A stretch of 64,000 nt of DNA from Patescibacteria group bacterium (GTDB lineage: Bacteria > Patescibacteriota > Patescibacteriia > 2-12-FULL-60-25). The translations under genes and the position numbers were made by a program. The DNA is taken from contig JAGOQX010000001.1 of the NCBI GenBank assembly GCA_018063105.1, positions 8,551 to 72,550 on the forward strand. The letters run 5' to 3'. Below are positions 6,357 to 58,009 of this stretch, piece by piece. Within the stretch, counting starts at the first letter, position 1; the number at the start of each line of letters is the position of its first letter. A model generated the notes under the pieces. It did no database searches, was not told the DNA's origin, and saw nothing but the letters and a program-made list of their open reading frames with translations.

Positions 6357-6442
6357 CCAAGTAGCTTACCTCAACCTGAATGAGATGTCTTGGGAACGAA
6401 AAACATTGATCCTTTTGCCCAAATCTGCCAAACTCTCACTAT

Positions 6443-7816: not shown

Positions 7817-7866
7817 TATTCGTTCAGTTTTTTGCTTTCGTTATCGCGTATCACGTTTTCTAAAAA

Positions 7867-8850
7867 ATGAAATCACGGCTACCTAATACATCACCAACAT
7901 ACATGTTCATCCTCCCACCTGATGCGCTGGTCAACATCCTTCGTTGCTCTTTCTGCAAAGCATCCTTAGAACACACACAGACTGCCTGGAGATGCCAAAG
8001 CTGCGCAATGGTCTTTCCAAATTCACCCATACACGTTGGAACGCATGAAGAATTAACGATCGACTTCAGTATTTCGAAACGACCCTATTGCTTAACGGAA
8101 TCTGAAAAAATTTGGAAAGAAGAACAGGAACGGTACGAAGAACGAAGTAGGACGCATCACAATATTCTTCCTATCCAAGAATACCTCAATGAAATCAATG
8201 GCGTGAAAGAAATCTATACACGCGAGTTTCATCTTGAAGGCGCAGTGCTTGATGTGGGTGGTCATCAGGGCAGACTGAGACATTTTTTAGATGAGCAGAC
8301 AAGCCTATACGTCTCTATCGATCCGTATAAACAGACATTCTCTAATATTGAGTCGCTCACTCCTCTTCTCGAGGCGTACCCCGTATTAAAGCAGCCTTGC
8401 TATTTTGTCGTCGGCGTCGCCGAACGTCTCCCGTTTGCAAGTCAATCGTTTGATTGGGTTCACATGAGATCCGTCCTTGATCATTTTGAAGATCCATATC
8501 TTGCGCTAAAAGAAGCGTACAGAGTGTTAAAACCGGGTGGAAAAATCCTCATCGGATTAGCCATTGTTGAGAAGTTGCACCGTACAGAACAGAACACATC
8601 ACTCCTTCAACGAATCAGAACGAATGTCCAAAAAAATGGAATCAGCGGCCTCTTCCGAACGGTAATACAAAAAATGAGAGATCGCGTCTTCCATCATCAC
8701 ACGCAGCATCATCACGTCTTTCGTTTTTCTCACGCACAGCTCACCGAAATGCTTCAGGATGCCGGCTTCAGCGTCCACCATGAACATTGGCAGAAACCAC
8801 CGACCGACTTCTGTCTCTATCTAGACGCGATAAAACAAACGAACAAATAA
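7867..8850 (+). CDS. Class I SAM-dependent methyltransferase with N-terminal zinc ribbon
   Basis: 327-aa ORF. CSFC...CQSC zinc ribbon. SAM motif I VLDVGGHQG and post-I/II region VLKPGGKILIG. Confidence 0.7.
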   Translation: MKSRLPNTSPTYMFILPPDALVNILRCSFCKASLEHTQTAWRCQSCAMVFPNSPIHVGTHEELTIDFSISKRPYCLTESEKIWKEEQERYEERSRTHHNILPIQEYLNEINGVKEIYTREFHLEGAVLDVGGHQGRLRHFLDEQTSLYVSIDPYKQTFSNIESLTPLLEAYPVLKQPCYFVVGVAERLPFASQSFDWVHMRSVLDHFEDPYLALKEAYRVLKPGGKILIGLAIVEKLHRTEQNTSLLQRIRTNVQKNGISGLFRTVIQKMRDRVFHHHTQHHHVFRFSHAQLTEMLQDAGFSVHHEHWQKPPTDFCLYLDAIKQTNK

Positions 8851-8881
8851 CCGAGCCAGCATCTCTTAACCTTGACACCTT

Positions 8882-8910
8882 TTGACACCTTTTGACCATG
8901 CCTGTACACT
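8882..8910 (+). promoter_or_regulatory. Sigma-70-like promoter candidate (TTGACA-17 nt-TACACT) within 10-nt direct repeats
   Basis: TTGACA at 8882-8887, a 17-nt spacer, then TACACT at 8905-8910. The ATG of the HTH gene at 8917 is 7 nt after the -10 element, so the transcript may be leaderless. tttgacacct is tandemly repeated across 8871-8898. Confidence 0.45.
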
Positions 8911-8916
8911 TGATCC

Positions 8917-9165
8917 ATGAATAAGGAGATCAACAATCACGAAGTCTATTCAACGGTTGAAGCACAACAGCTGCTTAAAATCAGCGAAAGCACCATCAAG
9001 AGACTGCTCAAAAAGGGGCTCATCAAAGCAAATAAAGTCGGCGGCCAATATCGCATTCTTGGAAAAGAGCTGCTTCGCCTTGTTTCACCAGAAGCGGAAC
9101 AACAAGCGATACAATCTTATCTGAAGCTCAAGAAAAAAATCGTCACAAAGATCAACCCTTGGTAA
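8917..9165 (+). CDS. Small excisionase/MerR-type helix-turn-helix (HTH_17-like) DNA-binding protein
   Basis: 82-aa ORF. YSTVEAQQLLKISESTIKRLLKKGLIKANKVGGQYRILGKELLRLV matches the excisionase-family HTH pattern (helix, then a basic wing ...G..yRI). Confidence 0.65.
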   Translation: MNKEINNHEVYSTVEAQQLLKISESTIKRLLKKGLIKANKVGGQYRILGKELLRLVSPEAEQQAIQSYLKLKKKIVTKINPW

Positions 9166-9171
9166 CTTGAT

Positions 9172-9987
9172 ATGGAAACCGTCATTCGACCAAAAAAGAC
9201 GATAAGCCTCGAAGATTTCAAAGAGATCTGGCGCTATAAAGAGCTCCTCTATTTCTTCACATGGCGCGATCTTAAGGTCCGATACAAACAAACGGCTATC
9301 GGCGTTCTCTGGGCAATCTTCCAACCTTTCATGACGATGGTCGTTTTTACGATGTTCTTTGGGAATCTCCTAAAGGTTCCATCCGATGGGGTTCCCTATC
9401 CAATTTTTGTGTATATCGGACTTCTCTTCTGGCAATTCTTTTCTAGCGCACTTTCGGATACGAGTAATGTGCTCATTTCAAATCAAGCAATTATTACAAA
9501 AGTTTATTTTCCAAGACTTATTCTTCCATTTTCATCGGTAGCAACAAAACTCATCGATTTTGCAATCGCGTCAATCATTCTCATTGGAATGATGGTATAT
9601 TACGGCTATACTCCGCGTCCTGTTGGCATCCTCATTCTCCCCGTCCTCATCAGTATTACTTTCATGGCATCAGTTGGTGGCGGATTGTTTCTCGCGGCTG
9701 TAAACGTAAAATATAGAGATGTTCGATATGTTCTTCCGTTTTTCATCCAGATCCTTCTCTTCGTCACACCGGTTATCTATCCGGCTGGTATCGTAGGCAG
9801 ATATTCATGGGTCCTCGCCCTGAATCCAATGATGGGGGTCATCCAAACTGCACGCGCTGCATTTCTAGGTACCGCGCCTATAAATTGGACGCTCCTCACG
9901 CTCTCCTCTGCTGCCAGTGCAATCCTGTTTGTTATTGGCATTATCTATTTCAAAAAAGTCGAGCGTTATTTCGCTGATATCATCTAA
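9172..9987 (+). CDS. wzm: ABC-2 type polysaccharide export permease (Wzm/TagG-like)
   Basis: 271-aa ORF. YKELLYFFTWRDLKVRYKQTAIGVLWAIFQPF signature followed by 6 TM helices. Confidence 0.9.
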   Translation: METVIRPKKTISLEDFKEIWRYKELLYFFTWRDLKVRYKQTAIGVLWAIFQPFMTMVVFTMFFGNLLKVPSDGVPYPIFVYIGLLFWQFFSSALSDTSNVLISNQAIITKVYFPRLILPFSSVATKLIDFAIASIILIGMMVYYGYTPRPVGILILPVLISITFMASVGGGLFLAAVNVKYRDVRYVLPFFIQILLFVTPVIYPAGIVGRYSWVLALNPMMGVIQTARAAFLGTAPINWTLLTLSSAASAILFVIGIIYFKKVERYFADII

Positions 9988-9993
9988 ATCTCT

Positions 9994-11268
9994 ATGGAAC
10001 CAATCATCGAAATCAAAGGTGTAGGAAAAAAATATAACATCACACATCAGCGTGGAGGATACATTGCGCTTCGCGATATCTTTGCGAATATTCTTCGAAA
10101 TCCATTTAAATTTGCAAAACAAAAAGCAAAACAAATAGTAGGACTTGAAACAAAAGAAGAGTTTTGGGCTCTTCGTAATATCAATCTCGAAATACAAAAA
10201 GGCGAGATCATTGGAATCATTGGCCACAACGGAGCTGGAAAATCAACACTTCTGAAAATTCTTTCAAGGATAACACCGCCAATAGAAGGAGAAATCATCA
10301 TGCGAGGCAAAGTCGCGTCGCTACTTGAAGTAGGAACTGGATTTCATCCAGAGTTGACAGGACGCGAAAATATTTTTCTGAACGGCGCAATTATCGGCAT
10401 GACGCAAAAAGAAATCGCGCGAAAATTTGATGAAATCGTCGCGTTCGCCGGAGTTGAAAAATTTCTTGATACGCCGGTCAAATACTATTCAAGCGGAATG
10501 TTTGTCCGACTCGCCTTTTCCGTTGCGGCACATATGGAACCGGACATTCTGATCATCGATGAAGTTCTTGCCGTCGGCGATGCGGAATTTCAAAAAAAAT
10601 GCTTGGGAAAAATGGAAGAAGTGACAAAAGCAGAAGGAAGAACAATTTTATTTGTCAGTCATAATATTGGAGCCATCCAACAATTATGTAAAAAATGCGC
10701 ACTACTGGAACATGGCAAGCTAAAAAGCTTTGGTCCGACCGAACAAATCGTCGCCGAATATCTTGGTAGCAACAAAACACTCGGCGCAACTTCAAGTATT
10801 CTCAATAATCAACATCTCAAGGGAACGCGTGAAGCTACTATCACGGAAGTGGGCATTAGCAATAAGGAGATTAAAAAGAATGCGTTTCTCATCAATGAAC
10901 CCATTCAATTTGATATCAACTTCAACGTCCAACCGAACGCGCGTCCGCTTTCATTTTGGATCATATTCACGAATCAAGAAGGATCCAGAGTCTTAAACAC
11001 CTTTCAAAAAGATATCGAAAAACCGAATGCGTACACGCCAGGCCAGCATACGATACGTGTAACACTTAACGACATTGGCCTCATGCCTGGTAGATATACT
11101 GCTCTTATCGGTATCTTTGCACACGACATGGCTACAAAATTCGATTTCGCAGATTGGGTCGAACCAGCACAAGTCTTCGACATCGCACCAACGTTCTCCG
11201 ACGGCACTCCATTTGACGGCCGATGGGGAACTATGACAACGAAAGCCAATTGGAAAACAACCCTATGA
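9994..11268 (+). CDS. wzt: Polysaccharide export ABC ATPase with C-terminal substrate-binding extension (Wzt/TagH-like)
   Basis: 424-aa ORF. Walker A GHNGAGKST, signature YSSGMFVRLAFS and Walker B ILIIDEVLAVGD. An additional roughly 170-aa beta-rich C-terminal domain sits where the Wzt_C carbohydrate-binding module lies. Confidence 0.9.
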   Translation: MEPIIEIKGVGKKYNITHQRGGYIALRDIFANILRNPFKFAKQKAKQIVGLETKEEFWALRNINLEIQKGEIIGIIGHNGAGKSTLLKILSRITPPIEGEIIMRGKVASLLEVGTGFHPELTGRENIFLNGAIIGMTQKEIARKFDEIVAFAGVEKFLDTPVKYYSSGMFVRLAFSVAAHMEPDILIIDEVLAVGDAEFQKKCLGKMEEVTKAEGRTILFVSHNIGAIQQLCKKCALLEHGKLKSFGPTEQIVAEYLGSNKTLGATSSILNNQHLKGTREATITEVGISNKEIKKNAFLINEPIQFDINFNVQPNARPLSFWIIFTNQEGSRVLNTFQKDIEKPNAYTPGQHTIRVTLNDIGLMPGRYTALIGIFAHDMATKFDFADWVEPAQVFDIAPTFSDGTPFDGRWGTMTTKANWKTTL

Positions 11269-11825
11269 TACACTCACTTTCTCAAGGCGCTTTGATTTGG
11301 ATTACCGGACTCCCAGGTGCGGGAAAAACAACGACGGCAAAACATCTATACGAACTTGTAAAAGATCAAGTGCCTACCGTCTGTATCGATGGTGATGTTA
11401 TGCGTGAGCTTATGGGCGGAGACCTTGGATACACTGACAGTGACCGGCTCGCTAACGCATATCGTATTGCTCGACTATGTAAGCACTTGGTCGATCATCG
11501 TCTTCTTGTCATCTGTTCTACCGTCTCATTATATAAAGAAATTCATGAATGGATTCGCACGTACATTGCGATTACGACAATCGTCCTCATCGATGTAGAC
11601 TTCTCCACGCTCGTCCAGCGCGATCAAAAAGGAATGTACAGCCAAGCACTCGCTGGACAGCTCACAAACGTACGCGGAGTAAACCAGGCATATGACATTC
11701 CCGAGGCACCAGAATTTACCATACAGAATAACGGGAATATTGAAACGCTCTTCGCCCTCGCGCCGCAAATCATGGATACTGTTCTGCAGCGACTTCAGGT
11801 ACACACGGACTCACCGAGCGTATGA
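11265..11825 (+). CDS. APS-kinase-fold P-loop kinase; candidate cytidine diphosphoramidate kinase (Cj1415 type)
   Basis: Start moved to the ATG at 11265, an ATGA overlap with the wzt stop. 186 aa. WITGLPGAGKTT, IDGDVMRE..GDLGYTDSDR and RDQKGMYSQALAGQLTNVRGVNQAYDIPEAPE align motif-for-motif with CysC. No ATP sulfurylase is in the window. Confidence 0.75.
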   Translation: MIHSLSQGALIWITGLPGAGKTTTAKHLYELVKDQVPTVCIDGDVMRELMGGDLGYTDSDRLANAYRIARLCKHLVDHRLLVICSTVSLYKEIHEWIRTYIAITTIVLIDVDFSTLVQRDQKGMYSQALAGQLTNVRGVNQAYDIPEAPEFTIQNNGNIETLFALAPQIMDTVLQRLQVHTDSPSV

Positions 11826-14221
11826 TTATAAAAAATCCATCCTCTACCATTTCTTTTGGGAGTAAAGCGGAAACTCTGGAACGACTTCGCCCGCATCTCC
11901 ATTCTGCCGTGATAGATCCTCTCTATTTTTTTACCGTACAAGAATGGAACAACGATCGTGCATCCATTGTAAAAAAAATACACTCTTTTTTAGGCGACCA
12001 CCCGCTCGTTGTTCGTAGCAGCGCAATAGATGAAGACGGCCTGAACCAATCAAATGCGGGACACTACACCTCGACTCTTAATATCCCTGCACAAGATACT
12101 CAAAAACTTGAGTCTGCCGTTGATGCGACCATCACTTCTTATACGGACAATCGTGCGGACCACCAAGTGTTCGCGCAGCCTTTTCTCAATTCCGTTGAAA
12201 TGAGCGGGGTCATTTTTACACGTGACATCAATTCATTCGCTTCGTATGTCACCATTAACTACGATGATGAAAGCGGTCGAACAGATACGGTGACAAACGG
12301 ATCAAACAACCGATCTAAAACGTTTATCTTTCTTAAAGAACGCTGCTACGAACTCACTGATGAGCGATTCCGTCGTTTACTCGATGTCGTAGAAGAACTT
12401 GAACGGTTATTTGAAAATGATGCACTCGACATTGAATTTGCAGTTCGGAACAATGCGATTCATGTGCTCCAGGTGCGACCGATCGTACGCAAACATAATG
12501 CTATCGACGTACCAGATGCAACGCGCCTGCGTACAACACTTCAACAGATCTACGATCGAATAAAAGAACTAGCAACCCCTCACCCAGATCTATATGGCAA
12601 AGAAACGCTGTATGGCATTATGCCGGATTGGAATCCGGCAGAAATGATCGGAATCAAACCACGACCTCTCGCGCTCTCCCTGTATCGAGAGTTGATTACG
12701 GACAACGTTTGGGCGTATCAACGGGACAACTATGGCTATAAACGGCTGCGTAGTTTTCCGCTCCTTGTTTCATTCGCCGGTCATCCATATATCGATGTAC
12801 GAGTGGACTTCAATTCGTTCATTCCTAAAGCCATTCCAGACGAACTTTCGCATCGACTGACGGATTTTTATTTACAAAAATTACAAGCATCGCCTGCGAG
12901 TCACGACAAAATAGAATTTGACATCGTGTATTCCTGTTACACGTTTGATCTACCAAATAGAATGACCGAGCTTCTTCAGCACGGATTTACGACCGAGGAT
13001 ATCAATCTCATCACCAACTCCTTACGTCAACTCACACTCGGCATCATCGGGAACGACGATACTCCAGGTCTCTATACCACCGACCTCGAACGAATTCACA
13101 CGTTAGATGGAAGACGAGAGACACTCCTCGCCTCGCCTCTATCGGATATCAACAAAATTTACTGGCTTATTGAGGATTGCAAACGATATGGCACGCTCCC
13201 GTTCGCCGGTATCGCGCGAGCTGGCTTTGTCGCGATGTCTTTACTTCAATCAATGGTCACTTGCGGCATCCTCACCTCTGAGGAAAAACAACGTTTTCTC
13301 AATTCGTTACACACGATTACTCGACAACTGAATGTAGATACGCGTGCACTCAATGCCGAGCGCATGAGTCACCAAGAATTTCTCAAAAAATACGGCCATC
13401 TTCGTCCAGGTACGTATGACATCACACTCGGAAATTACTCCGAACAATTCGATACATACTTTCAACGCACACCGTCCACAACGACTAATACGAATGATCT
13501 GCATCCGCAAACCTTTCATCTGACCGACGTCCAGACAGGGGCCATCCGAATGCTTCTTGATGAACACAGCCTACCGATGAGTGTAGAGCATCTTTTTCAA
13601 TTCATCCGCGAAGCCATTGAGGGTCGTGAATACGCAAAATTTGCATTTACGAAAAACGTTTCCCAAGTCCTAACACTGATAAAGGGCTATGGAAAGCAAA
13701 TGAACTTAGATTCGGAACAACTATCCTTTACGGAAATTGGCACATTCCTGCGATTTTATTCGACAGTCGCATACTTTGATGAACAGGACGTCTTAACTGC
13801 GGAGATCGAACGGAACCAAAAAATGTATCACTTGTACAAAGTATTAAAACTTCCGCATCTCATCTGCAAGCCTGAAGATGTATTCGCCTTTCATGTTGGT
13901 ACAATGGAACCAAACTACATTACCCAGACAATCGCTGAAGGCGACATTCACGTTTTACGTTCAACCGATACGCCCGAAATGCTGCACGGAAAAATCACAT
14001 GCATTGAAAGTGCAGATCCAGGATTTGATTGGATCTTTTCCCACAACATCGCAGGGCTCATCACGACCTATGGTGGTGCTAATTCACATATGGCTATACG
14101 CGCCGCGGAACTCAATATTCCAGCAGTGATCGGTTGCGGCCCACTCCTATTCGAACAGTGGAGCCACGAGCGGCGTATACGTCTTGACGCAGCAACACGA
14201 CGCGTTATTCCTCTTCTATGA
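11822..14221 (+). CDS. PEP-utilising/PPDK-like three-domain enzyme; candidate L-glutamine kinase (Cj1418 type)
   Basis: 799-aa ORF. N-terminal PPDK_N/ATP-grasp motif LVVRSSAIDEDGLNQSNAGHYTS. C-terminal phosphohistidine swivel domain ITTYGGANSHMAIRAAELNIPAVIGCG. ATGA overlap with the upstream gene. Confidence 0.7.
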   Translation: MIIKNPSSTISFGSKAETLERLRPHLHSAVIDPLYFFTVQEWNNDRASIVKKIHSFLGDHPLVVRSSAIDEDGLNQSNAGHYTSTLNIPAQDTQKLESAVDATITSYTDNRADHQVFAQPFLNSVEMSGVIFTRDINSFASYVTINYDDESGRTDTVTNGSNNRSKTFIFLKERCYELTDERFRRLLDVVEELERLFENDALDIEFAVRNNAIHVLQVRPIVRKHNAIDVPDATRLRTTLQQIYDRIKELATPHPDLYGKETLYGIMPDWNPAEMIGIKPRPLALSLYRELITDNVWAYQRDNYGYKRLRSFPLLVSFAGHPYIDVRVDFNSFIPKAIPDELSHRLTDFYLQKLQASPASHDKIEFDIVYSCYTFDLPNRMTELLQHGFTTEDINLITNSLRQLTLGIIGNDDTPGLYTTDLERIHTLDGRRETLLASPLSDINKIYWLIEDCKRYGTLPFAGIARAGFVAMSLLQSMVTCGILTSEEKQRFLNSLHTITRQLNVDTRALNAERMSHQEFLKKYGHLRPGTYDITLGNYSEQFDTYFQRTPSTTTNTNDLHPQTFHLTDVQTGAIRMLLDEHSLPMSVEHLFQFIREAIEGREYAKFAFTKNVSQVLTLIKGYGKQMNLDSEQLSFTEIGTFLRFYSTVAYFDEQDVLTAEIERNQKMYHLYKVLKLPHLICKPEDVFAFHVGTMEPNYITQTIAEGDIHVLRSTDTPEMLHGKITCIESADPGFDWIFSHNIAGLITTYGGANSHMAIRAAELNIPAVIGCGPLLFEQWSHERRIRLDAATRRVIPLL

Positions 14222-15006
14222 ACGCTATCATTCTCGCGGCAGGCATGGGTACACGACTCGGCGCATACACCGCCGATCGTCCAAAATGCACCTTGTTATT
14301 CAAGGGCAAGCAACTAATCGAGCATCAGGTGGATACCCTGCGTCGCGCTGGTATTACAGATATTACAATCGTGCGAGGCTATCATTCAGAATGCATACAA
14401 ATTCCGGGAGTTCGATACGTTCAAAATGATGATTTCATGAATACGAACATGGTTGAAACACTCTTCTGTGCAGAATCTGAAATCAAAGGCGACACACTTA
14501 TTGCTTACGCAGACATTCTCTACGAACCACGCGTCATCGCGGCGATTCAAGCGAGCACCGTCGACATCGGCGTTACCGTCGATACGGATTACTGGACCTA
14601 TTGGTCAGCTCGACTCGATCATCCGGAGCAAGACACGGAAAGTCTCGTTGTGAACGATCAAGGGACGATTATCGAATTAGGCGATTCAAGCTGTCCGTCA
14701 GAAAAAGCGCGCATTCGATATGTCGGACTCATCAAACTATCTCAAAAAGGTGCTGAAGCGCTCAAGCGCGTCTATCATGAAAACAGCATCGCTCACAGCA
14801 ATTCAAACGAGCCATGGAAACGGTCCAAATGCTTCCGCAAGGCGTATATGACCTGTTTATTACAAGCGGTGATCGATTCTGGTTTTCCCGTTCATCCCAT
14901 CGAAATTCAACACGGATGGATTGAATTCGACACTGTTGAAGATTACGAACGCGCCGCAAAGTGGGACGCGGAAGGCAATCTGGATCGCTTTATCCACCTC
15001 ACATAA
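14218..15006 (+). CDS. LicC-like nucleotidyltransferase; candidate CTP:phosphoglutamine cytidylyltransferase (Cj1416 type)
   Basis: 262-aa ORF. MNAIILAAGMGTRLG...DRPKCTL NTP-transferase signature. ATGA overlap with the upstream gene. Confidence 0.7.
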   Translation: MNAIILAAGMGTRLGAYTADRPKCTLLFKGKQLIEHQVDTLRRAGITDITIVRGYHSECIQIPGVRYVQNDDFMNTNMVETLFCAESEIKGDTLIAYADILYEPRVIAAIQASTVDIGVTVDTDYWTYWSARLDHPEQDTESLVVNDQGTIIELGDSSCPSEKARIRYVGLIKLSQKGAEALKRVYHENSIAHSNSNEPWKRSKCFRKAYMTCLLQAVIDSGFPVHPIEIQHGWIEFDTVEDYERAAKWDAEGNLDRFIHLT

Positions 15007-15008
15007 CT

Positions 15009-15677
15009 ATGCGTATTGCCATTTCACAACGCTCGATCACGCATGAGCAGGGCGCGCGCCTGGATGCTCTTGAGCAAGACTACATCCGCTATTATCAAAC
15101 GTTCGGGTACACGCTCATTCCCATCCCGAATGTCCTCAATGATCCAGATTCCTACCTGTCATCCATTGGCATTCAAGGCATTATTCTGAGCGGCGGAGGC
15201 GACGTTCATCCATCGCTCTATGGTCATCCGGCAGCATCAACTGGATCCTACATGCCGGAACGCGATCGAACGGAACGCCTGCTCGTACAATACGCCATCG
15301 ATCATGCAATACCTCTCTTTGGCGAGTGCCGTGGCGCCCAATTCCTCAATGTATTTTTTGGTGGATCCCTCATCGAGGATCTGGTAGAGTACTTACCGCA
15401 TGCGATGAGCCATGTACAAACCCAACATATTGTGACATTCCACCCAAACGACCGGCTCCCCAATCTTCCGCCAGGGACAGAAACCAATTCGTACCATCGT
15501 CACGGCTTCACAGAAAAAGAACTCGCGCCAAACCTCCGCCCTTTTGCATCAACCGGTGACGGTGTCATCGAAGGCTTTATTCATGCCTCCATGCCGATCA
15601 TCGGAATCCAATGGCATCCGGAACGCGGCAAACCAGATGACAGCACCACATCACTCATCAAAACGCTTTTCAGATAG
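15009..15677 (+). CDS. Class I glutamine amidotransferase / peptidase C26-like hydrolase; candidate gamma-glutamyl-CDP-amidate hydrolase (Cj1417 type)
   Basis: Start moved to the ATG at 15009 (MRIAISQR), 2 nt after the upstream stop. 222 aa. ILSGGGDV, nucleophile motif GECRGAQFLN, and IQWHPER with His/Glu. Confidence 0.7.
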   Translation: MRIAISQRSITHEQGARLDALEQDYIRYYQTFGYTLIPIPNVLNDPDSYLSSIGIQGIILSGGGDVHPSLYGHPAASTGSYMPERDRTERLLVQYAIDHAIPLFGECRGAQFLNVFFGGSLIEDLVEYLPHAMSHVQTQHIVTFHPNDRLPNLPPGTETNSYHRHGFTEKELAPNLRPFASTGDGVIEGFIHASMPIIGIQWHPERGKPDDSTTSLIKTLFR

Positions 15678-15704
15678 CATCTTTATTCCTCACTCTTCCT
15701 TCAT

Positions 15705-16493
15705 ATGTCAACCTCCTCAACCTCACAAGCAACAAAAGCCTGGGACTATACAGATCAAGCTGCCTACTACCGTTTCCGTCCGAACTACGCTGAAAAAGCG
15801 ATTGATGATGTATGCGCGTATGTCAATGCAAAAGCTGATCAGTTTGTGGTGGCAGACGTCGGCGCCGGAACAGGAAACTTAACGGTCATGCTCCTCGCTC
15901 GACAACTCCCGTGCATTGCAATAGAACCAAACGATGCCATGCGTACTATCGGCATTGAATCAACAAAAGAGTTTGAACATATTTCATGGCGCACCGGAAC
16001 CGGCGAACACACGACTCTCGATGACGCGTCCGTCGATTGGTTTGCCATGGGCTCATCGTTCAACACCACGGATCGTGAAGCAACACTGAAGGAGGCCCAT
16101 CGCGTTCTGAAGCCGGGTGGATATTTTAGCTGCATGTGGAACCATCGAGACCTTGAAGACCCAATCCAAAAACGCATTGAGGACATTATTCTTTCCATCG
16201 TTCCAACCTATCAACGCGGCACACGTCGCGAAGGACAAGCAGACATCATCCTTTCAAGCAAGCTATTCAATGACGTTCATTACATTGAGCAGCCACAACA
16301 AGTAGAACGAACGCTGGAAGAATATATGAACGGATGGAAGTCTGTGAAAAATATCTATTGGGATCACGAGACAGAACAAGGCAAACAAACATTTAAAGCC
16401 ATTGAAGACGCGGTCAAAAAAGAATTTGGACATCTTGATAAACTACATCTGACGTACGTCACCCGCATATGGACCGCACGCGTCCAAAAATAG
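15705..16493 (+). CDS. Class I SAM-dependent methyltransferase (Cj1419/Cj1420-like position)
   Basis: 262-aa ORF. Motif I VADVGAGTGNLT and VLKPGGYFSCMW. Confidence 0.75.
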   Translation: MSTSSTSQATKAWDYTDQAAYYRFRPNYAEKAIDDVCAYVNAKADQFVVADVGAGTGNLTVMLLARQLPCIAIEPNDAMRTIGIESTKEFEHISWRTGTGEHTTLDDASVDWFAMGSSFNTTDREATLKEAHRVLKPGGYFSCMWNHRDLEDPIQKRIEDIILSIVPTYQRGTRREGQADIILSSKLFNDVHYIEQPQQVERTLEEYMNGWKSVKNIYWDHETEQGKQTFKAIEDAVKKEFGHLDKLHLTYVTRIWTARVQK

Positions 16494-17473
16494 ATCCAAC
16501 TCATCGAGAAACAGCTCTCCTTGCCTCCTCCCAATTCCCATCGGGAGTAGCTTGGCTTCTCAATTTCTTCGTCGAATTAGACGTCCTTATCTATCGCGGA
16601 AACAGTCCGGAAAAAACATGGCTCTATGATTCGAACAACCGCACCTATCGTGTAACCGAGGGTGATCAGATACTAAAGCAATGGATTCCCGCGCTCACCG
16701 ATCAACCGGACCGAACATTTGCCGAATCTCTTTGCATTCGATGGAGTCATGAGTTCCCAAACTCTACCAACGTACAACAAAAAGTGATCCTCATGATGCG
16801 AGATGGACGAGATGCAGTATATTCTCAATATAAACGCGAACATGCTGCCGATAGGGCACTTCAGGATATGTTGCGGATGCACTACGCACCGCTCGACCTA
16901 CCTCCAGCTGAAACATGGGCTACCCACGCGTACCTGTGGCTTCAACGTATTCCGAAGGATCGACTTCATATCATTCGGTTCGAAGACATCAAGACCGATC
17001 CTCTTCCGGAAGTAAAACGACTCCTCGCCTTTCTGGGGATGCAACGATCAGATGAAGATCTCCAGCGAGCAATCACCAGCTCAAGCTTTGAACGTGCAAA
17101 ACAAGCGGAAACTGCCTATCGAGCACAACAGACACAAACGCAATTCGCAGAAGTGAACCGTAAAGGACAACCGGGCGAATGGAAGACGAATTATACACCA
17201 GAAACACTGCGATTTTTCACCGGATTTCCACTATACATTCTCAATACATTCGGGTACGAAACGGATGCATCGACTACGTGTACCGACGCATGCTGTCGCC
17301 TCTTACTCAAGATCAAAAAAGCTCAGGTCGTCTCTCGCTGGTTTATGCGAGTAAACCTTCGCAGTGTCACACAACGGTTCATGCAACAAGTAATAAATAC
17401 AATCAAAAGCCTTCTCCCAAAACAAGTACGGATAGTTACTAAAAAATTAAAACAAAATGTCACCAACAGTTGA
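16469..17473 (+). CDS. Sulfotransferase-fold protein (Sulfotransfer_1-like)
   Basis: 334-aa ORF. 5'-PSB-like loop FPSGVAWLLN. 3'-PB-like MMRDGRDAVYS. IRFEDIKTDPLPEVKRLLAFLG. The C-terminal NRKGQPGEWKTNYTPE matches the RKGxxGDWKNxFT motif of PAPS-dependent sulfotransferases. Confidence 0.75.
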   Translation: MDRTRPKIDPTHRETALLASSQFPSGVAWLLNFFVELDVLIYRGNSPEKTWLYDSNNRTYRVTEGDQILKQWIPALTDQPDRTFAESLCIRWSHEFPNSTNVQQKVILMMRDGRDAVYSQYKREHAADRALQDMLRMHYAPLDLPPAETWATHAYLWLQRIPKDRLHIIRFEDIKTDPLPEVKRLLAFLGMQRSDEDLQRAITSSSFERAKQAETAYRAQQTQTQFAEVNRKGQPGEWKTNYTPETLRFFTGFPLYILNTFGYETDASTTCTDACCRLLLKIKKAQVVSRWFMRVNLRSVTQRFMQQVINTIKSLLPKQVRIVTKKLKQNVTNS

Positions 17474-17481
17474 TTCCACAT

Positions 17482-18381
17482 ATGACTACGGCTCTATCCA
17501 TAGACAATAGCGAGCAATTCGAGGCCTGTCCTCTTTGTGACTGCAAAGACCTCTATTTGGTTGGCACAATTTCCTATTCAGAGCCGCTCATCTTCGCGAC
17601 CACGCCTATCACGTTATCGCATAAACCGAGTTATCACCGTTGTCAGCAGTGCGGAAGCGGAATCGTTCAACAGACAATTCCCGAAGAAACCATGCGGACA
17701 TTGTATCAAGAGACCGAAGGGAACCGATGGTCCGCACCACCATTTACCCAAGAAAAGACACTTTCCCTTCGACGTGCATTCGATCGATTGCTAAAAACGG
17801 GGACGCGTCTGCTTGATATCGGCTGCAGCTCGGGTGAGTTATTGGATTATGCCGTTGATCGAGGCGCCGTCGTTGCGGGCGTTGAGCCGTCTACCTACTG
17901 TCGTCAGGAGTGCGAAACGAAGGGTCACCACGTCTATCGATCGATTGATGACATTCCCGATGACGTTACGTTTGACAGTATTACCGCGTTCGATCTCATC
18001 GAGCATCTACACGAACCCAAACATTTTCTTCAGAAGTGCTCGTCTCTGCTCCGTCCAAACGGGAGTCTTCTTATTCTGACAGGAAACCCAAACTGTCTTT
18101 CAGCTCGCCTAGCCAATCAACGGTGGTGGTACATCGGTTACCCTGAGCATGTCTTTTTTCCAACAAAAAAATCATTACAGCATCTCGCAGATTTTACGTT
18201 GGATTTCTACAATCCTGTCTATAATTCTCAAGCGTACCAAACACGATCTTGCTCGCAGTGGAATATTCAGGGTGCACGCAATGTGAAAGACACGGCGATT
18301 CGCTTACGCAAACAGAACTATACAGGCCTGCCACTTCTCGGTCCTGATCACGCACTCGTTCATCTCATGAAACGCATATGA
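17482..18381 (+). CDS. Class I SAM-dependent methyltransferase with N-terminal zinc ribbon
   Basis: ATG at 17482; the ORF track begins at a TTG at 17470. CPLCDC...CQQCGS. Motif I LLDIGCSSGELLD and LLRPNGSLLILTG. Confidence 0.7.
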   Translation: MTTALSIDNSEQFEACPLCDCKDLYLVGTISYSEPLIFATTPITLSHKPSYHRCQQCGSGIVQQTIPEETMRTLYQETEGNRWSAPPFTQEKTLSLRRAFDRLLKTGTRLLDIGCSSGELLDYAVDRGAVVAGVEPSTYCRQECETKGHHVYRSIDDIPDDVTFDSITAFDLIEHLHEPKHFLQKCSSLLRPNGSLLILTGNPNCLSARLANQRWWYIGYPEHVFFPTKKSLQHLADFTLDFYNPVYNSQAYQTRSCSQWNIQGARNVKDTAIRLRKQNYTGLPLLGPDHALVHLMKRI

Positions 18382-19160
18382 AACATATAATCCAACACTT
18401 TCTTTCCTTTGTCACTCGCTGTCTGTTAGGCATTCTGCGCGGTTTTGAAATACTGCGTCATAAAATCCTGCGAATACTTCGTACGATTGATATCTACCTA
18501 TCCGGGGAAGAGTGCCTCACACTCCGTGATTGCGCACTTCTCGTAAAACTTTGTGAACGTCAACCGCCCGGATCAGATCGATTTCTCGAATATCCCTGGA
18601 TGATTGAACACATCCCTCAACGAACACAACACCTATTAGACGTCGGTTCAACGATTGCTCCCATGCTGCGTGATTTGCTCCCTCAAACAATCAACATCTC
18701 GGCCATAGATTTTTCCGACAGAAAACAACCGTGCTCGGCCATACAGTACGTTCATGGCGATATCCGTCAGACGTCGTTTCACGATACGACGTTCGATTGT
18801 ATTACCTGTATTTCGACACTCGAACACATTGGTGTCGCTGGACGCTATGGCTGCGACAACGATCCGGATGGCGATCTGAAGGCGATGGTTGAGATGCACA
18901 GAATTCTACAACCAAACGGTACACTCCTTCTTACTGTTCCCTACGGAATTCGAGACGTCCTACCTATTAACAAGCTATACACTGAAGCCCGTTTACAGGC
19001 GTTGTTCGAAAACCGTTTTACAGTTACATCAATCACCTACAAAAAGTTCTCAACAAAATGGAAATACTGGTTCAGCGTGAGCGAGCAGGAAGCGGCAAAA
19101 ACAGATATGCTTCAAGATCGTTGGTATGCCATAGCGCTTATTGAACTCCAACGCGTATGA
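18378..19160 (+). CDS. DUF268-like SAM-dependent methyltransferase-fold protein
   Basis: 260-aa ORF. LLDVGST, then ISTLEHIGVAGRYGCDNDPDGDLKAMVEMHRILQPNGTLLLTVPYG, which resembles the DUF268 signature. ATGA overlap with the upstream gene. Confidence 0.55.
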   Translation: MKHIIQHFLSFVTRCLLGILRGFEILRHKILRILRTIDIYLSGEECLTLRDCALLVKLCERQPPGSDRFLEYPWMIEHIPQRTQHLLDVGSTIAPMLRDLLPQTINISAIDFSDRKQPCSAIQYVHGDIRQTSFHDTTFDCITCISTLEHIGVAGRYGCDNDPDGDLKAMVEMHRILQPNGTLLLTVPYGIRDVLPINKLYTEARLQALFENRFTVTSITYKKFSTKWKYWFSVSEQEAAKTDMLQDRWYAIALIELQRV

Positions 19161-20026
19161 TCGCCCCCGCGTTTTTCACACTTCCAAAACCATTTGCTAA
19201 CGATCACATTGCGGTGATTCAGTACAACGCGATTAAAAGCTGGACTATTTCTAATCCACAAAGCGACATTTTTTTAATTGGAGATGAAATCGGCGTCAAA
19301 GAAATTTCAGATGAGCTACGCGTTCAGCATCTGCCGTTCGTTCAACGGAATCAATTCGGGACCCCCCTCATTAACTCTGCACTCCATATCGCAGGTTCGC
19401 GCACGAACGCACCCGATCTTGTCTATATCAATACCGATATCATATTGATTGATCATTTTTCAACTCTCCGATCAACATTACCACTCGATTCCTTCCTCCT
19501 CATTGGACAACGAACCGATCTCGACGTATCAGAACCACTGACTTTTCGTCCGGGATGGGAATCACAACTCATGGATCAAGTCTCAAAAATCGGCAAACTG
19601 CATTCAAAATCCGGCATTGACTATTTCATGTTTCAAAAGGAAATCTGGAACGATCTCCCCCCTTTTGCCGTAGGTCGTGCCGGTTGGGACAACGGGTTCA
19701 TCTTTCTCGCAAGATCAAGGAACATCCCCGTCATCGACGCGACAACATTTGTTCGTGCCGTCCACCAAAACCATTCTCACACGTCGCAGCAAATTCAGAA
19801 CGGGGATTGGCACGGTCCCGAGCGAGACGAAAACATTCGTCTCAGCGGTGGATCAAAATCCCTCATGACCATTGCCGACGCGCTGTATCGTATCGACGGC
19901 TCCTCTCTGATAAAAAACCGCCTCTCATTTAACTTCATACAGAAATTCCTTTTTAAGGCACCGAGCATCCTCATTAAACATACTGTAGCTAAAAAAGCAT
20001 TGCCGTTGCACAGGAGTGCATCGTAA
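19157..20026 (+). CDS. Hypothetical protein (possibly a GT-A-like transferase)
   Basis: 289-aa ORF, ATGA-coupled to its neighbours. Only weak cues: INTDII (DXD-like) and GRAGWDNGF. I do not recognise a family. Confidence 0.5.
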   Translation: MIAPAFFTLPKPFANDHIAVIQYNAIKSWTISNPQSDIFLIGDEIGVKEISDELRVQHLPFVQRNQFGTPLINSALHIAGSRTNAPDLVYINTDIILIDHFSTLRSTLPLDSFLLIGQRTDLDVSEPLTFRPGWESQLMDQVSKIGKLHSKSGIDYFMFQKEIWNDLPPFAVGRAGWDNGFIFLARSRNIPVIDATTFVRAVHQNHSHTSQQIQNGDWHGPERDENIRLSGGSKSLMTIADALYRIDGSSLIKNRLSFNFIQKFLFKAPSILIKHTVAKKALPLHRSAS

Positions 20027-25004: not shown

Positions 25005-25967
25005 ATGACCCCTCACGTCAGTGTCGTCATGGCCGTGCGGAACGGACACAAGACACTTAAAGAAGCACTCGACAGCATTCTGGAACAAACCTTCCAGGAT
25101 TTCGAGTTCATCATTATTGATGACGCATCTGACGATGCAACGGGTGCGATTCTTCGACAACGGAACGACCCTCGAATCATCCGAATACGCAACAACACAA
25201 ATCTCGGACTTGCCGCATCGCTCAACGAAGGAATTCGACGCGCAAAGGGAGAGTACATCGCCAGAATGGACGGAGACGATGTTGCCCCTCCGAATCGTTT
25301 TGCAATCCAAGTCGCTTTTTTGGACGCGCATCCTGCCATCGGAATTCTCGGATCAAGCGCACGACTCATTGGGAAGACTGGCCAACGAAAGGGTCGATAC
25401 ACAGCCATGCCAACGCATACGCTGATCAAATGGCGTTCGCTCTTTGGTTCACCGATGATCCATCCGTCGATCATGGCGCGTCGTTCAATCCTCCTCGCAA
25501 ATCCCTACGACGAAACCTATCGAAACTCACAGGATTTTGAACTCTGGAGTCGTTTACTATTCGGGTCAACCGTTCAATTCGCGAACCTCAAAAAACCGCT
25601 TCTCTTGTATCGCGTCCATCAAGATTCAACTTCCTCAAAACGAACGGTCGAACAAAAAGAATTGAGCATGCAAACCATGTTCAACAACATGGCACGGTAT
25701 ACAGACCTTTCTGATCAAGAAGTACAAGCACTTCGGACAATCCGTCTCGGAGAACAGATCACCGGTCGCATAGAAAAGATCATCTTCGGTCTGTATCGTC
25801 GTCTCGCAACTTCCTTCATCTCTCGTGAACCGGTGACGTTCAAAGAACGATTCGCAATCTATCGATTTCTCATTCAATCAAAGTGGTTCATCTGGAAAAC
25901 TCGAATCCGTTCAATGCTTAACCTCGCAGAACTGCTCCCCGTTCATAATCGCACGACCAAGAAATAA
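25005..25967 (+). CDS. GT2-family glycosyltransferase
   Basis: 320-aa ORF. VSVVMAVRNGHKTLKEALDSILEQTFQDFEFIIIDDASDD and ARMDGDD. Confidence 0.85.
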   Translation: MTPHVSVVMAVRNGHKTLKEALDSILEQTFQDFEFIIIDDASDDATGAILRQRNDPRIIRIRNNTNLGLAASLNEGIRRAKGEYIARMDGDDVAPPNRFAIQVAFLDAHPAIGILGSSARLIGKTGQRKGRYTAMPTHTLIKWRSLFGSPMIHPSIMARRSILLANPYDETYRNSQDFELWSRLLFGSTVQFANLKKPLLLYRVHQDSTSSKRTVEQKELSMQTMFNNMARYTDLSDQEVQALRTIRLGEQITGRIEKIIFGLYRRLATSFISREPVTFKERFAIYRFLIQSKWFIWKTRIRSMLNLAELLPVHNRTTKK

Positions 25968-27689: not shown

Positions 27690-27690
27690 A

Positions 27691-55037: not shown

Positions 55038-55047
55038 AACAACGAAA

Positions 55048-57915: not shown

Positions 57916-58009
57916 ACGTTGACGTGTGGAAGTATAGCATACGAACGAGGCCCTCTCACTCTCCACAAAATCCCCGTATCCTGATATAGTTCAAACCACC
58001 ATTATCCTC

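What the first reader, a model, noticed from the sequence alone, without database searches (positions are those of the whole stretch)
16469..17473. Canonical sulfotransferase fold next to a pathway making a PAPS-like phosphoramidate donor: candidate novel phosphoramidate transferase
The 334-aa protein carries all the PAPS-binding hallmarks of Sulfotransfer_1. These are PSGVAW (5'-PSB), RDGRDAVYS (3'-PB), FEDIKTDP...FLG and RKGQPGEWKTNYT. It overlaps the 3' end of the preceding methyltransferase gene by 25 nt. The end product of the Cj1415-type kinase, 3'-phospho-cytidine-5'-diphosphoramidate, is structurally analogous to PAPS (a 3'-phosphonucleotide carrying an activated group). A sulfotransferase-fold enzyme is therefore a logical candidate to move the phosphoramidate to a sugar hydroxyl. 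In C. jejuni that step is attributed to Cj1421/Cj1422. I cannot tell from memory whether those share this fold. The alternative is genuine glycan sulfation using PAPS made by the APS-kinase-like gene.
Basis: inference. Interest (0 to 1): 0.7.

Follow-up and report, generated by a model that had tools for sequence, protein, structure and literature searches.

The report
Sulfotransferase-fold enzyme for phosphoramidate transfer
A gene annotated as a sulfotransferase in an uncultured Patescibacteria genome always sits inside the pathway that makes a PAPS-like phosphoramidate donor, so it most likely attaches that rare P-N group to a cell-surface sugar polymer, an activity not yet reported for this fold.

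Summary
The ORF at 16469-17473 is real. It encodes a 334-aa protein with a confident sulfotransferase fold: Pfam Sulfotransfer_1 at 81 bits, an AF2 model with pLDDT 84.5, and Foldseek probability 1.0 to PAP-bound SULTs. It keeps the catalytic His and the 3'-phosphate-binding motifs. It lacks the Lys/Arg of the 5'-phosphosulfate loop.

It directly follows orthologues of Cj1415, Cj1418, Cj1416, Cj1417 and Cj1419, the last at 50% identity. All 11 family members looked up independently, down to 26% identity and with shuffled gene order, sit beside the same cassette. A weak outgroup sulfotransferase does not. No ATP sulfurylase was found in any of these contexts.

In other organisms the protein is fused to the orthologue of the window's next gene, a methyltransferase. 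Across 80 GTDB cassettes, sulfotransferase-fold proteins of at least two lineages are the commonest partner. Real Cj1421/Cj1422, which I recovered, are DUF2972 proteins with no detectable homology to it.

The best reading is a phosphoramidyl (MeOPN) transferase that uses 3'-phospho-CDP-amidate (confidence about 0.7). Donor and base selectivity are untested. I found no literature linking MeOPN to sulfotransferases. I rate it a new variant of a known kind, interest about 0.7.

The parts
9172..9987 (+). Wzm-type ABC-2 permease of the glycopolymer exporter
   Evidence: Pfam ABC2_membrane, E=1.5e-15. The same gene precedes the cassette in sister loci L001, L004, L006 and L018.
9994..11268 (+). Wzt-type ABC ATPase with a C-terminal carbohydrate-binding Wzt_C domain
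   Evidence: Pfam ABC_tran at 4.8e-23 and Wzt_C at 1.2e-12. Its proposed role as reader of a terminal cap is inference.
11223..11825 (+). APS-kinase-like kinase. It is the Cj1415-type candidate cytidine diphosphoramidate 3'-kinase.
   Evidence: Pfam APS_kinase at 1.4e-33. NCBIfam PRK05541 scores 146 bits, above its cutoff of 127, while TIGR00455 apsK scores 116, below its cutoff of 138.7. An APSK domain is present in 74 of 80 GTDB glutamine-kinase loci and is fused to the glutamine kinase in 31 of them.
11822..14221 (+). L-glutamine kinase (Cj1418 type)
   Evidence: NCBIfam NF004508/PRK05849 at 965 bits, full length. Pfam PPDK_N plus PEP-utilizers.
14218..15006 (+). Nucleotidyltransferase. It is the Cj1416-type candidate CTP:phosphoglutamine cytidylyltransferase.
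   Evidence: Pfam NTP_transf_3 and NTP_transferase. It holds a conserved position in the cassette in 72 loci.
14961..15677 (+). Class-I glutamine amidotransferase / Peptidase_C26. It is the Cj1417-type candidate gamma-glutamyl-CDP-amidate hydrolase.
   Evidence: Pfam Peptidase_C26 at 3.5e-38. The best NCBIfam hit is NF045546, gamma-glutamyl-CDP-amidate hydrolase, at 74.6 bits, below its equivalog cutoff of 250.
15705..16493 (+). SAM methyltransferase, orthologue of Cj1419 (34% identical to Cj1420)
   Evidence: BLASTP gives 50% identity over 250 aa, E=3e-91, to Cj1419 from the recovered C. jejuni locus L095.
16469..17473 (+). Sulfotransferase-fold protein, the finding. It is the proposed phosphoramidyl/MeOPN transferase. 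The catalytic domain spans residues 14-270 and is followed by a basic helical tail at 273-333.
   Evidence: The tail has 14 K/R against 1 D/E in 61 residues.
17470..18381 (+). Zinc-ribbon plus Methyltransf_23 methyltransferase, fused to the sulfotransferase-fold domain in other organisms
   Evidence: Pfam Methyltransf_23 at 7e-24. P0182 (606 aa) is a window-type ST domain joined to an orthologue of this gene, with 40% identity over 295 aa and E=2e-79. P0197 has the same architecture.

Best explanation
The gene encodes a diverged sulfotransferase-fold group-transfer enzyme. It is the last-step transferase of a phosphoramidate (MeOPN-type) glycan-modification module. The five genes upstream make 3'-phospho-cytidine-5'-diphosphoramidate from glutamine, ATP and CTP. 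They do so by the chemistry established for C. jejuni Cj1418, Cj1416, Cj1417 and Cj1415. This much is shown: the orthologues are present and syntenic. The rest is inferred. The protein binds the donor the way sulfotransferases bind PAPS, holding the 3'-phosphate with R111/S119 and the RKG motif. The invariant His94 deprotonates a sugar hydroxyl. The phosphoramidyl group moves to the glycan and cytidine 3',5'-bisphosphate is released. Many sister cassettes carry a CysQ-like Inositol_P phosphatase that could remove that by-product. The translationally coupled methyltransferases are the Cj1419 orthologue upstream and the MT23 gene downstream. One of them O-methylates the group to give methyl phosphoramidate, before or after transfer. 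The acceptor here is a polymer built on a Bac_transf-primed lipid and exported by Wzm/Wzt. The modification may be a terminal cap read by the Wzt_C domain.
For: Fold and retained 3'-phosphonucleotide site.

The PSB-loop Lys/Arg is absent in all 23 family members. It is also absent in 10 of 13 members of the second cassette-linked ST family, which argues against ordinary sulfuryl-transfer chemistry.

Strict linkage: 11 of 11 ST-first look-ups plus the window lie next to the four-gene cassette and a Cj1419-type methyltransferase. Gene order is rearranged in L008, L009, L010 and in L018/L020/L043. The hosts span Patescibacteria, Bacteroidota, Sulfuricurvum, Bdellovibrionales, Thermodesulfovibrionales and Azospirillum. 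The outgroup sulfotransferase P0024 is not linked.

The window methyltransferase is 50% identical to Cj1419.

Rosetta-stone fusions join the ST domain to the downstream MT23 gene in P0182 and P0197. An ST-MT fusion also occurs in Geobacter locus L034.

A different ST-fold family accompanies most other cassettes. It hits Pfam Sulfotransfer_3. Its AF2 model has pLDDT 88, and Foldseek matches TPST2 and the CurM ST domain at probability 1.0. ST-fold proteins are present in 34 of 80 loci and in 23 of 48 full-length loci.

No Cj1421/22 homologue occurs in the window or in any related locus. No sulfate-activation genes occur in any ST-family context. A CysQ-like Inositol_P gene lies inside sister cassettes.
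Against: There is no biochemical or genetic test. The donor nucleotide is not established. The residues that sandwich adenine in SULTs are conserved as W29, F171, S205 and F206, so an adenine nucleotide is not excluded.

The only genetically validated MeOPN transferases, Cj1421/22, are not detectable homologues. About 10 of 48 complete cassettes show no recognisable ST-fold partner, and 5 of 80 carry a TagF-like phosphotransferase instead.

The APS-kinase-like enzyme could in principle phosphorylate APS. Only 64 kb of the genome was inspected for ATP sulfurylase. Linked genes share ancestry, so the 12 contexts are not fully independent.
Confidence: 0.7

Rival explanations
1. It is an ordinary PAPS-dependent glycan sulfotransferase. 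The APS-kinase-like neighbour makes PAPS, and the linkage to the glutamine-kinase genes only reflects two independent decorations of the same polymer.
For: It is a significant Pfam Sulfotransfer_1 member with PAP-binding 3'-phosphate motifs, a catalytic His and conserved aromatic base-stacking residues. The public annotation is 'sulfotransferase domain-containing protein'. One distant cassette, Vibrio pVa1, lies next to cysDN.
Against: The PSB-loop Lys/Arg that all characterised sulfotransferases use is absent (from my own knowledge of SULT, TPST, NST and Stf0 motifs). In 12 of 12 contexts the gene lies inside the phosphoramidate cassette, and none has an ATP sulfurylase. The kinase is fused to the glutamine kinase in 31 of 80 loci, which ties it to that pathway rather than to sulfate activation. 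The Vibrio locus with cysDN carries a TagF-like gene, not this family. Patescibacteria usually lack sulfate assimilation (general knowledge, not tested here).
Confidence: 0.1
2. It belongs to the phosphoramidate pathway and binds the 3'-phosphonucleotide, but it is not the glycan phosphoramidyl transferase. It might act on a lipid, protein or small-molecule acceptor. It might move an already methylated group in a different step order. It might recycle or hydrolyse the donor while another neighbour does the transfer.
For: In L008 and L009 the module sits outside any polysaccharide cluster. Unknown ORFs conserved with L006 lie just downstream, at window 18378-20026. Many relatives carry two ST-like domains in tandem, which suggests sub-functionalisation.
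Against: In most contexts the module is embedded among glycosyltransferases, flippases or ABC exporters. The invariant His94 and the open acceptor side are typical of transferases. No other conserved candidate transferase co-varies with the family.
Confidence: 0.15
3. It is a catalytically dead sulfotransferase-like scaffold or nucleotide sensor that merely travels with the cluster.
For: The canonical catalytic lysines are lost: the K48 equivalent is Pro and the K106 equivalent is Trp.
Against: His94, R111, D112, D115, S119, G233 and E237 are invariant across sequences as low as 26% identical, and 341 representative clusters score at E<=1e-30. That degree of conservation points to an active site under selection.
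Confidence: 0.03

Closest known systems
PAPS-dependent sulfotransferases (Pfam PF00685 Sulfotransfer_1; e.g. SULT7A1 5X2B, SULT2A1 3F3Y/4IFB, SULT1E1 1AQU)
   Same: They share the fold (Foldseek probability 1.0), the catalytic His, the 3'-phosphate-binding R...S and RKGxxGxW motifs, and the YEDLxxDP-type strand-helix.
   Different: This protein has no Lys/Arg in the 5'-phosphosulfate loop and no K106 equivalent. Only residues 96-250 match the Pfam model. It has a basic helical C-terminal tail. It is obligately linked to the glutamine-kinase cassette and never to sulfate-activation genes.
C. jejuni MeOPN transferases Cj1421/Cj1422 (Pfam DUF2972, PF11186)
   Same: The proposed job is the same, and so is the genomic place, directly next to the Cj1419/1420-type methyltransferases and the Cj1415-1418 genes. 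A short RDPxDxxxS-like motif in Cj1422 aligns to the 3'-phosphate motif at 16.4 bits, a score reached by 0 of 1000 shuffles.
   Different: No detectable sequence homology exists: hhalign probability is below 4% and jackhmmer finds nothing. Cj1421/22 are about 610-625 aa with a shared 244-residue N-terminal domain and phase-variable poly-G tracts. The window gene has no such tracts. Their fold could not be predicted here.
Sulfotransfer_3/TPST-like partners of other phosphoramidate cassettes ('family 5', e.g. P0028, and Anaerotruncus colihominis L036)
   Same: They have the same superfamily fold (hhalign probability 94%; AF2 plus Foldseek matches to TPST2 and CurM ST), the same RxP...S and RFEDLK motifs, the same cassette neighbourhood, and a degenerate PSB loop.
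   Different: They are 410-930 aa with extra N-terminal Rossmann-like or AMP-binding domains. They often occur as paralogue pairs. BLAST-level similarity to the window protein is absent.
WbdD of E. coli O9a (kinase plus methyltransferase chain terminator read by the Wzt carbohydrate-binding domain)
   Same: The system logic matches. Both are ABC-transporter-dependent polymers with a Wzt that has a C-terminal CBM, and both pair a phospho-group-adding enzyme with a methyltransferase, fused in relatives, to produce a methyl-phospho(ramidate) group. This is my own knowledge of WbdD. The parallel is inference.
   Different: WbdD uses ATP and a protein-kinase-like fold and makes methyl phosphate. 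Here the donor would be a 3'-phospho-CDP-amidate and the fold is sulfotransferase. A terminal-cap role is not shown.
TagF-like CDP-glycerol glycerophosphotransferases (PF04464) beside some cassettes
   Same: They are an alternative candidate for moving a substituted phosphate from a CDP-linked donor. They occur next to the cassette in L030, L081, L088, L091, L092 and Vibrio alfacsensis pVa1.
   Different: The fold is unrelated (hhalign probability 1%). None is present in the window.

Membership tests
PAPS-dependent sulfotransferase (Sulfotransfer_1, PF00685) | Pfam model scores above the gathering threshold | tested here: met
   81 bits against a cutoff of 22, E=1.2e-22, but only residues 96-250 align to model positions 82-243.
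PAPS-dependent sulfotransferase (Sulfotransfer_1, PF00685) | Sulfotransferase alpha/beta fold | tested here: met
   The AF2 model has pLDDT 84.5. The top 50 Foldseek PDB hits are all sulfotransferase-fold, PAP/PAPS-binding proteins (including retinol dehydratase) at probability 1.00.
PAPS-dependent sulfotransferase (Sulfotransfer_1, PF00685) | 3'-phosphate-binding motifs (Arg...Ser after strand 5, and RKGxxGxW) | tested here: met
   R111 and S119 are invariant. RKG at 231-233 has G233 invariant. These positions align to R130/S138/R257-G259 of SULTs.
PAPS-dependent sulfotransferase (Sulfotransfer_1, PF00685) | 5'-phosphosulfate-binding loop with catalytic Lys/Arg (P-K/R-S/T-G-T/S-T) | tested here: not met
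   The loop is F-P-S-G-V-A-W. The Lys position is P/G/S/C in all 23 family members, and Thr-Thr is replaced by V/L-A/S/T.
PAPS-dependent sulfotransferase (Sulfotransfer_1, PF00685) | Catalytic general-base His | tested here: met
   H94 is invariant in alignment A2.
PAPS-dependent sulfotransferase (Sulfotransfer_1, PF00685) | Uses PAPS as donor, so a PAPS supply must exist | not testable with these tools
   No ATP sulfurylase or CysDN was found among 40 window ORFs or in 11 sister contexts. The whole genome and the activity were not examined.
MeOPN transferases Cj1421/Cj1422 (DUF2972) | Sequence homology to Cj1421/Cj1422 or a DUF2972 hit | tested here: not met
   Real Cj1421/22 were recovered and hit DUF2972 at E about 1e-73. 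The window protein has no DUF2972 hit. hhalign probability is 3% or less. jackhmmer finds nothing in the window or in 94 loci.
MeOPN transferases Cj1421/Cj1422 (DUF2972) | Encoded next to Cj1415-1420 orthologues | tested here: met
   The window order is APSK, GlnK, NTP transferase, GATase, Cj1419 orthologue, ST.
MeOPN transferases Cj1421/Cj1422 (DUF2972) | Phase-variable homopolymeric G tract | tested here: not met
   There is no G or C run of 6 or more in 16469-17473, and none of 7 or more in 11223-18381.
MeOPN transferases Cj1421/Cj1422 (DUF2972) | Transfers (methyl) phosphoramidate to a sugar hydroxyl | not testable with these tools
   This needs an enzyme assay or a mutant with NMR.
Phosphoramidate (MeOPN) donor-biosynthesis cassette, Cj1415-Cj1419 type (system level) | L-glutamine kinase orthologue | tested here: met
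   NF004508/PRK05849 at 965 bits over the full length.
Phosphoramidate (MeOPN) donor-biosynthesis cassette, Cj1415-Cj1419 type (system level) | Cytidylyltransferase, gamma-glutamyl-CDP-amidate hydrolase and 3'-kinase present and adjacent | tested here: inconclusive
   The right Pfam families are present in the right order. PRK05541 scores above its cutoff. NF045546 is the best hit for the hydrolase but scores 74.6 bits, below the equivalog cutoff of 250. Substrate specificities were not tested.
Phosphoramidate (MeOPN) donor-biosynthesis cassette, Cj1415-Cj1419 type (system level) | Cj1419/Cj1420-type methyltransferase | tested here: met
   50% identity to Cj1419 (E=3e-91) and 34% to Cj1420.

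The most novel reading that the evidence does not exclude
Sulfotransferase-fold enzymes are the general, so far unrecognised phosphoramidyl/MeOPN transferases of a cassette found in thousands of bacterial lineages. That would be the first use of a non-PAPS, cytidine-based, non-sulfuryl donor by this fold. In this Patescibacteria polymer the ST domain, together with its adjacent and elsewhere fused methyltransferase, would act like a WbdD-type terminator, installing a methyl-phosphoramidate cap that the Wzt_C domain reads for export.
Probability: 0.45. Interest if true: 0.85.

Novelty: new variant of a known kind. Interest (0 to 1): 0.7.

Why it matters
The last steps of methyl-phosphoramidate decoration, transfer and methylation, have not been reconstituted even in C. 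jejuni. Raushel-lab papers of 2025 still list them as open (PMC11800397, PMC12409886).

The glutamine-kinase cassette is far more widespread than Campylobacter. More than 7,500 protein clusters score at E<=1e-100, and at least 576 GTDB species carry it. Outside Campylobacter no transferase has been assigned.

If the sulfotransferase-fold partners are that enzyme, four things follow:
- A new reaction type is added to a textbook fold.
- Hundreds of 'sulfotransferase' annotations in glycan clusters are wrong about the chemistry.
- P-N-modified surface glycans become predictable from genomes, including those of CPR bacteria and gut Firmicutes.
- Soluble, single-domain enzymes, and a culturable host (Azospirillum lipoferum 4B), become available to test the step that has resisted study with Cj1421/22.

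Tried and rejected
- I first suspected that Cj1421/22 were TagF-like ('CGPTase'). PMC8949473 shows the CGPTase gene (06875) is distinct from the MeOPN transferase (06810), so I rejected this.
- Attempts to reach C. jejuni sequences failed through the GTDB scan (the top 80 loci had no Campylobacter), through PDB (no Cj1415-1418 chains), and through homologue searches with a family-5 profile and with an Arcobacteraceae glutamine kinase. It worked with a primer-derived DNA pattern from the PMC8437040 supplement against metagenome contigs.
Profile comparisons give only a motif-level hint.
- I first labelled 'family 5' as AMP-ligases from one representative. Pfam, jackhmmer and AF2 showed it is a sulfotransferase-fold family sometimes fused to AMP-binding domains.
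- I considered over-interpreting the invariant D112/D115 as phosphoramidate-specific. I rejected this because RDPxD is common in bacterial sulfotransferases and D115 matches SULT D134.
- Base selectivity from the pocket was not possible because model coordinates are not exposed. Sequence mapping shows the stacking residues are conserved, which is uninformative.
- The F8, F16 and F17 neighbour families were tested for ST relatedness. Only a weak LRLEDFxxDP motif match appeared for F8, at probability 3.7%, so I do not claim it.
- Literature searches for MeOPN or phosphoramidate together with sulfotransferase found nothing relevant. One search was badly framed and useless.
Full report
**Observation.** It overlaps the upstream methyltransferase ORF (end 16493) by 25 nt and the downstream ORF (start 17470) by 4 nt. 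Pfam assigns Sulfotransfer_1 at 81 bits and E=1.2e-22, although only residues 96-250 align. An AlphaFold2 model built on 23 family sequences has mean pLDDT 84.5 and pTM 0.79. It shows a compact alpha/beta domain (residues 14-270) followed by long, low-confidence helices. Foldseek against the PDB returns only sulfotransferase-fold proteins with bound PAP/PAPS among its top 50 hits, at probability 1.00 and TM 0.45-0.58. The exact protein is in GenBank as MBP9863843.1, 'sulfotransferase domain-containing protein', from a Patescibacteria group bacterium MAG. The neighbouring glutamine kinase is annotated there as 'phosphoenolpyruvate synthase'.

**Where it departs from a canonical sulfotransferase.** In the alignment of the window protein with 22 homologues, His94, Arg111, Asp112, Asp115, Ser119, Gly233 and Glu237 are invariant. 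Profile alignment to solved SULTs puts R111/S119 on the 3'-phosphate-binding Arg/Ser, and RKG 231-233 on the RKG motif. The two Thr that hold the 5'-phosphate are Val-Ala. The Lys preceding the catalytic His in SULTs (K-T-H) is Trp here (W-S-H). My numbering of SULT1A1 residues comes from memory and was used only as a guide. So the 3'-phosphonucleotide site and the general base are kept, while the cationic residues that stabilise sulfuryl transfer are gone.

**Surroundings.** The gene is the eighth in a co-directional, tightly packed row:
- Wzm permease (9172)
- Wzt ATPase with a Wzt_C carbohydrate-binding domain (9994)
- APS-kinase-like kinase (11223)
- a 799-aa PPDK-like protein matching the Cj1418-type model NF004508 at 965 bits (11822)
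- an NTP transferase (14218)
- a Peptidase_C26 amidotransferase whose best NCBIfam hit is gamma-glutamyl-CDP-amidate hydrolase (14961)
- a SAM methyltransferase (15705)
- the sulfotransferase-fold gene
- a Methyltransf_23 gene (17470)
- further methyltransferases, glycosyltransferases and a deacetylase

An initiating Bac_transf gene (6443), an LCP-family gene (58010) and a Wzy_C/TPR protein (39448) also lie in the window. I scanned 40 window ORFs against Pfam, the 20 of the cluster and 20 others of at least 272 aa elsewhere in the window. None is an ATP sulfurylase or CysD/CysN.

**Co-occurrence test, starting from the sulfotransferase side.** A word-seeded search of 5.8 billion proteins found 22 clear relatives. 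A full HMMER scan of 1.84 billion representatives found 341 clusters at E<=1e-30. I looked up the genomic context of eleven relatives spanning 52% down to 26% identity: P0002, P0004, P0008, P0009, P0011, P0012, P0013, P0014, P0015, P0019 and P0022. In all eleven, the gene abuts the APS-kinase-like, PPDK-like, NTP-transferase and Peptidase_C26 genes and a UbiE-type methyltransferase. Gene order differs between them. L008 runs GlnK-GAT-NTP-APSK-MT-ST. L009 runs InosP-ST-APSK-GAT-NTP with GlnK inverted. L010 runs APSK-MT-GlnK-NTP-GAT-ST. The linkage is therefore maintained through rearrangement rather than simply inherited. A weak outgroup sulfotransferase (P0024, E=1e-4) has no such neighbours. 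No context contains sulfate-activation genes. Several cassettes contain an Inositol_P (CysQ-like) gene. That fits removal of a nucleoside 3',5'-bisphosphate by-product, but it does not discriminate pCp from PAP.

**Co-occurrence test, starting from the cassette side.** A GTDB scan with a glutamine-kinase profile found at least 576 loci, and I analysed 80 from many phyla. An APS-kinase domain is present in 74 of them and is fused to the glutamine kinase itself in 31. That ties the kinase to the phosphoramidate pathway. Members of the window's family occur in Bacteroidetes, Sulfuricurvum, Bdellovibrionales, Pseudomonadota and Thermodesulfovibrionales loci, and on Azospirillum lipoferum 4B plasmid p6. 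Most other cassettes carry a different protein of 410-930 aa, often as a paralogue pair. It hits Pfam Sulfotransfer_3 and relates to the window family at hhalign probability 94%. One member (P0028) models at pLDDT 88 and matches TPST2 and the CurM sulfotransferase domain. Its PSB-like loop also lacks Lys; three of 13 members have Arg there. Overall, ST-fold proteins are detected in 34 of 80 loci and 23 of 48 full-length loci. TagF-like phosphotransferases appear in 5. An unassigned 340-aa family appears in about 18, and about 10 complete loci have no candidate.

**Comparison with the known MeOPN transferases.** I recovered a C. jejuni NCTC 11168-type contig using primer sequences from the supplement of PMC8437040. 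It carries hddA-gmhA2-hddC-Cj1422-Cj1421-Cj1420-Cj1419. Cj1421/22 hit only DUF2972. That agrees with PMC5808241, which describes a shared N-terminal domain, a predicted transmembrane segment and DUF2972. Profile-profile comparison to either ST family gives probability of 3% or less. jackhmmer with Cj1421/22 finds nothing in the window or in 94 loci. A broad ST profile scores Cj1422 at 16.4 bits, a score reached by 0 of 1000 shuffles, through an 'LLRDPIDSLKS' segment that aligns to the 3'-phosphate motif. Cj1421 is not significant. By contrast, the window methyltransferase at 15705 is a clear Cj1419 orthologue at 50% identity and E=3e-91. The window thus holds orthologues of Cj1415-Cj1419, with the ST-fold gene in the place of Cj1421/22.

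**Fusions.** Among the representatives, P0182 (606 aa) and P0197 (822 aa) consist of a window-type ST domain followed by an orthologue of the window's next gene, the zinc-ribbon/Methyltransf_23 protein at 17470-18381 (40% identity over 295 aa, E=2e-79). A Geobacter locus has an ST-methyltransferase fusion of another subtype. At least eleven representatives carry two ST-like domains in tandem. That recalls the paired transferases of C. jejuni. These fusions argue that group transfer and methylation are consecutive steps carried out by physically coupled proteins.

**Mechanism proposed.** Shown: the fold, the retained 3'-phosphate site and His, the loss of the PSB lysine, the presence and synteny of the five donor-pathway orthologues, the strict linkage, and the fusions. 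From established biochemistry (Taylor, Raushel and co-workers, as summarised in PMC11800397): Cj1418, Cj1416, Cj1417 and Cj1415 make CDP-phosphoramidate 3'-phosphate, 'the likely donor'. Inferred: the ST-fold enzyme uses this PAPS-like donor. His94 activates a sugar hydroxyl. The phosphoramidyl group is transferred and pCp leaves. A coupled methyltransferase then yields methyl phosphoramidate. The basic C-terminal helices (14 K/R against 1 D/E) would hold the enzyme at the membrane where the lipid-linked polymer is built. More speculatively, the modification could be a chain-terminating cap recognised by the Wzt_C domain, by analogy with WbdD and methyl phosphate in E. coli O9a.

**Limits.** I had no assay, no ligand docking and no whole-genome check for PAPS synthesis. 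The base-stacking residues of SULTs are conserved (W29, F171, S205/F206), so adenine is not excluded. The genomic contexts are phylogenetically related. Some cassettes use other candidate transferases.

**Literature.** Full-text searches found no paper that links MeOPN or the glutamine-kinase pathway with sulfotransferases. Papers from 2025 still treat the decoration steps as unresolved. Key subscription papers were not available, so a prior remark there cannot be excluded.

**Verdict.** Novelty is a new variant of a known kind. Confidence in the phosphoramidyl-transferase reading is about 0.7, and interest is about 0.7.

Noticed in passing
window 17470-18381, and proteins P0182 and P0197: The gene after the sulfotransferase-fold ORF (zinc-ribbon plus Methyltransf_23) is fused to a window-type ST domain in other organisms. 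This forms a single transferase-methyltransferase polypeptide.
   Followed up: yes
window 9994-11268: The Wzt ATPase carries a Wzt_C carbohydrate-binding domain and lies immediately upstream of the phosphoramidate cassette, overlapping its first gene. The same arrangement occurs in L001, L004, L006 and L018. It suggests export is gated by a terminal modification, possibly the phosphoramidate.
   Followed up: partly
L001:6997-7737, L004:5998-6756, L006:7042-7800, L009:9193-10008; absent between window 14221 and 14218: A CysQ-like Inositol_P phosphatase sits inside many sister cassettes but is missing from the window. It is a plausible scavenger of the nucleoside 3',5'-bisphosphate by-product.
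   Followed up: partly
GTDB loci L026-L087 (e.g. L026, L037, L044, L060): In 31 of 80 loci the glutamine kinase is about 975 aa because an APS-kinase-like domain is fused to it. This occurs mostly in Acidobacteriota and Bryobacterales.
   Followed up: partly
L074:14481-15503 and 13 related ORFs ('F8'): A 340-aa family with no Pfam hit accompanies the fused-kinase cassettes. It contains an LRLEDFxxDP segment resembling the sulfotransferase YEDLxxDP motif. hhalign probability is only 3.7%.
   Followed up: partly
proteins P0187, P0196, P0199, P0201, P0203, P0207, P0209, P0219, P0192, P0190, P0195: These are tandem fusions of two sulfotransferase-like domains, one of them window-type, often with C-terminal TPR regions. 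They may be two acceptor-specific transferases in one chain.
   Followed up: partly
L095:2895-6665 (C. jejuni Cj1422/Cj1421): The segment published as a transmembrane domain (FFSHGAGAFTLGQFF), followed about 80 residues later by RDPIxxxK and then a YLD/YIDM strand-helix, has the order and spacing of sulfotransferase motifs. The fold was not testable here.
   Followed up: partly
window 16469-17473, residues 273-333: The C-terminal 61 residues are predicted helical, low in confidence and strongly basic (14 K/R, 1 D/E). Homologues carry C-terminal extensions of very different lengths (245-522 aa among the close homologues of alignment A2). This could be a membrane anchor or a ruler-like element.
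   Followed up: no
window 25911-27767 (-) and 36363-38234 (-): Two asparagine-synthase-type amidotransferases lie in the glycan region. AsnB-like genes also neighbour the cassette in 8 other loci, which suggests amidated uronic acids in these polymers.
   Followed up: no
window 41944-45882 (-), 53247-55067 (-), 55048-57966 (-), 50032-51936 (-): Three large ORFs (1312, 606 and 972 aa) have no Pfam match. They lie beside a TraG-like P-loop ATPase, so this may be a secretion or DNA-transfer module of the Patescibacteria host.
   Followed up: no
L093 (Azospirillum lipoferum 4B plasmid AZO_p6) 5638-8178 and 14010-15104: A culturable bacterium carries the cassette with a window-type ST (WP_014189878.1) and an 846-aa protein annotated 'adenylyl-sulfate kinase'. 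Only the C-terminal 165 residues of that protein are kinase, and the N-terminal roughly 670 residues are unassigned.
   Followed up: partly
L094 (Vibrio alfacsensis pVa1) 5436-14010: Here the cassette, with a fused kinase-GlnK, lies beside cysD/cysN and a TagF-like CDP-glycerol glycerophosphotransferase family gene rather than an ST-fold gene.
   Followed up: no
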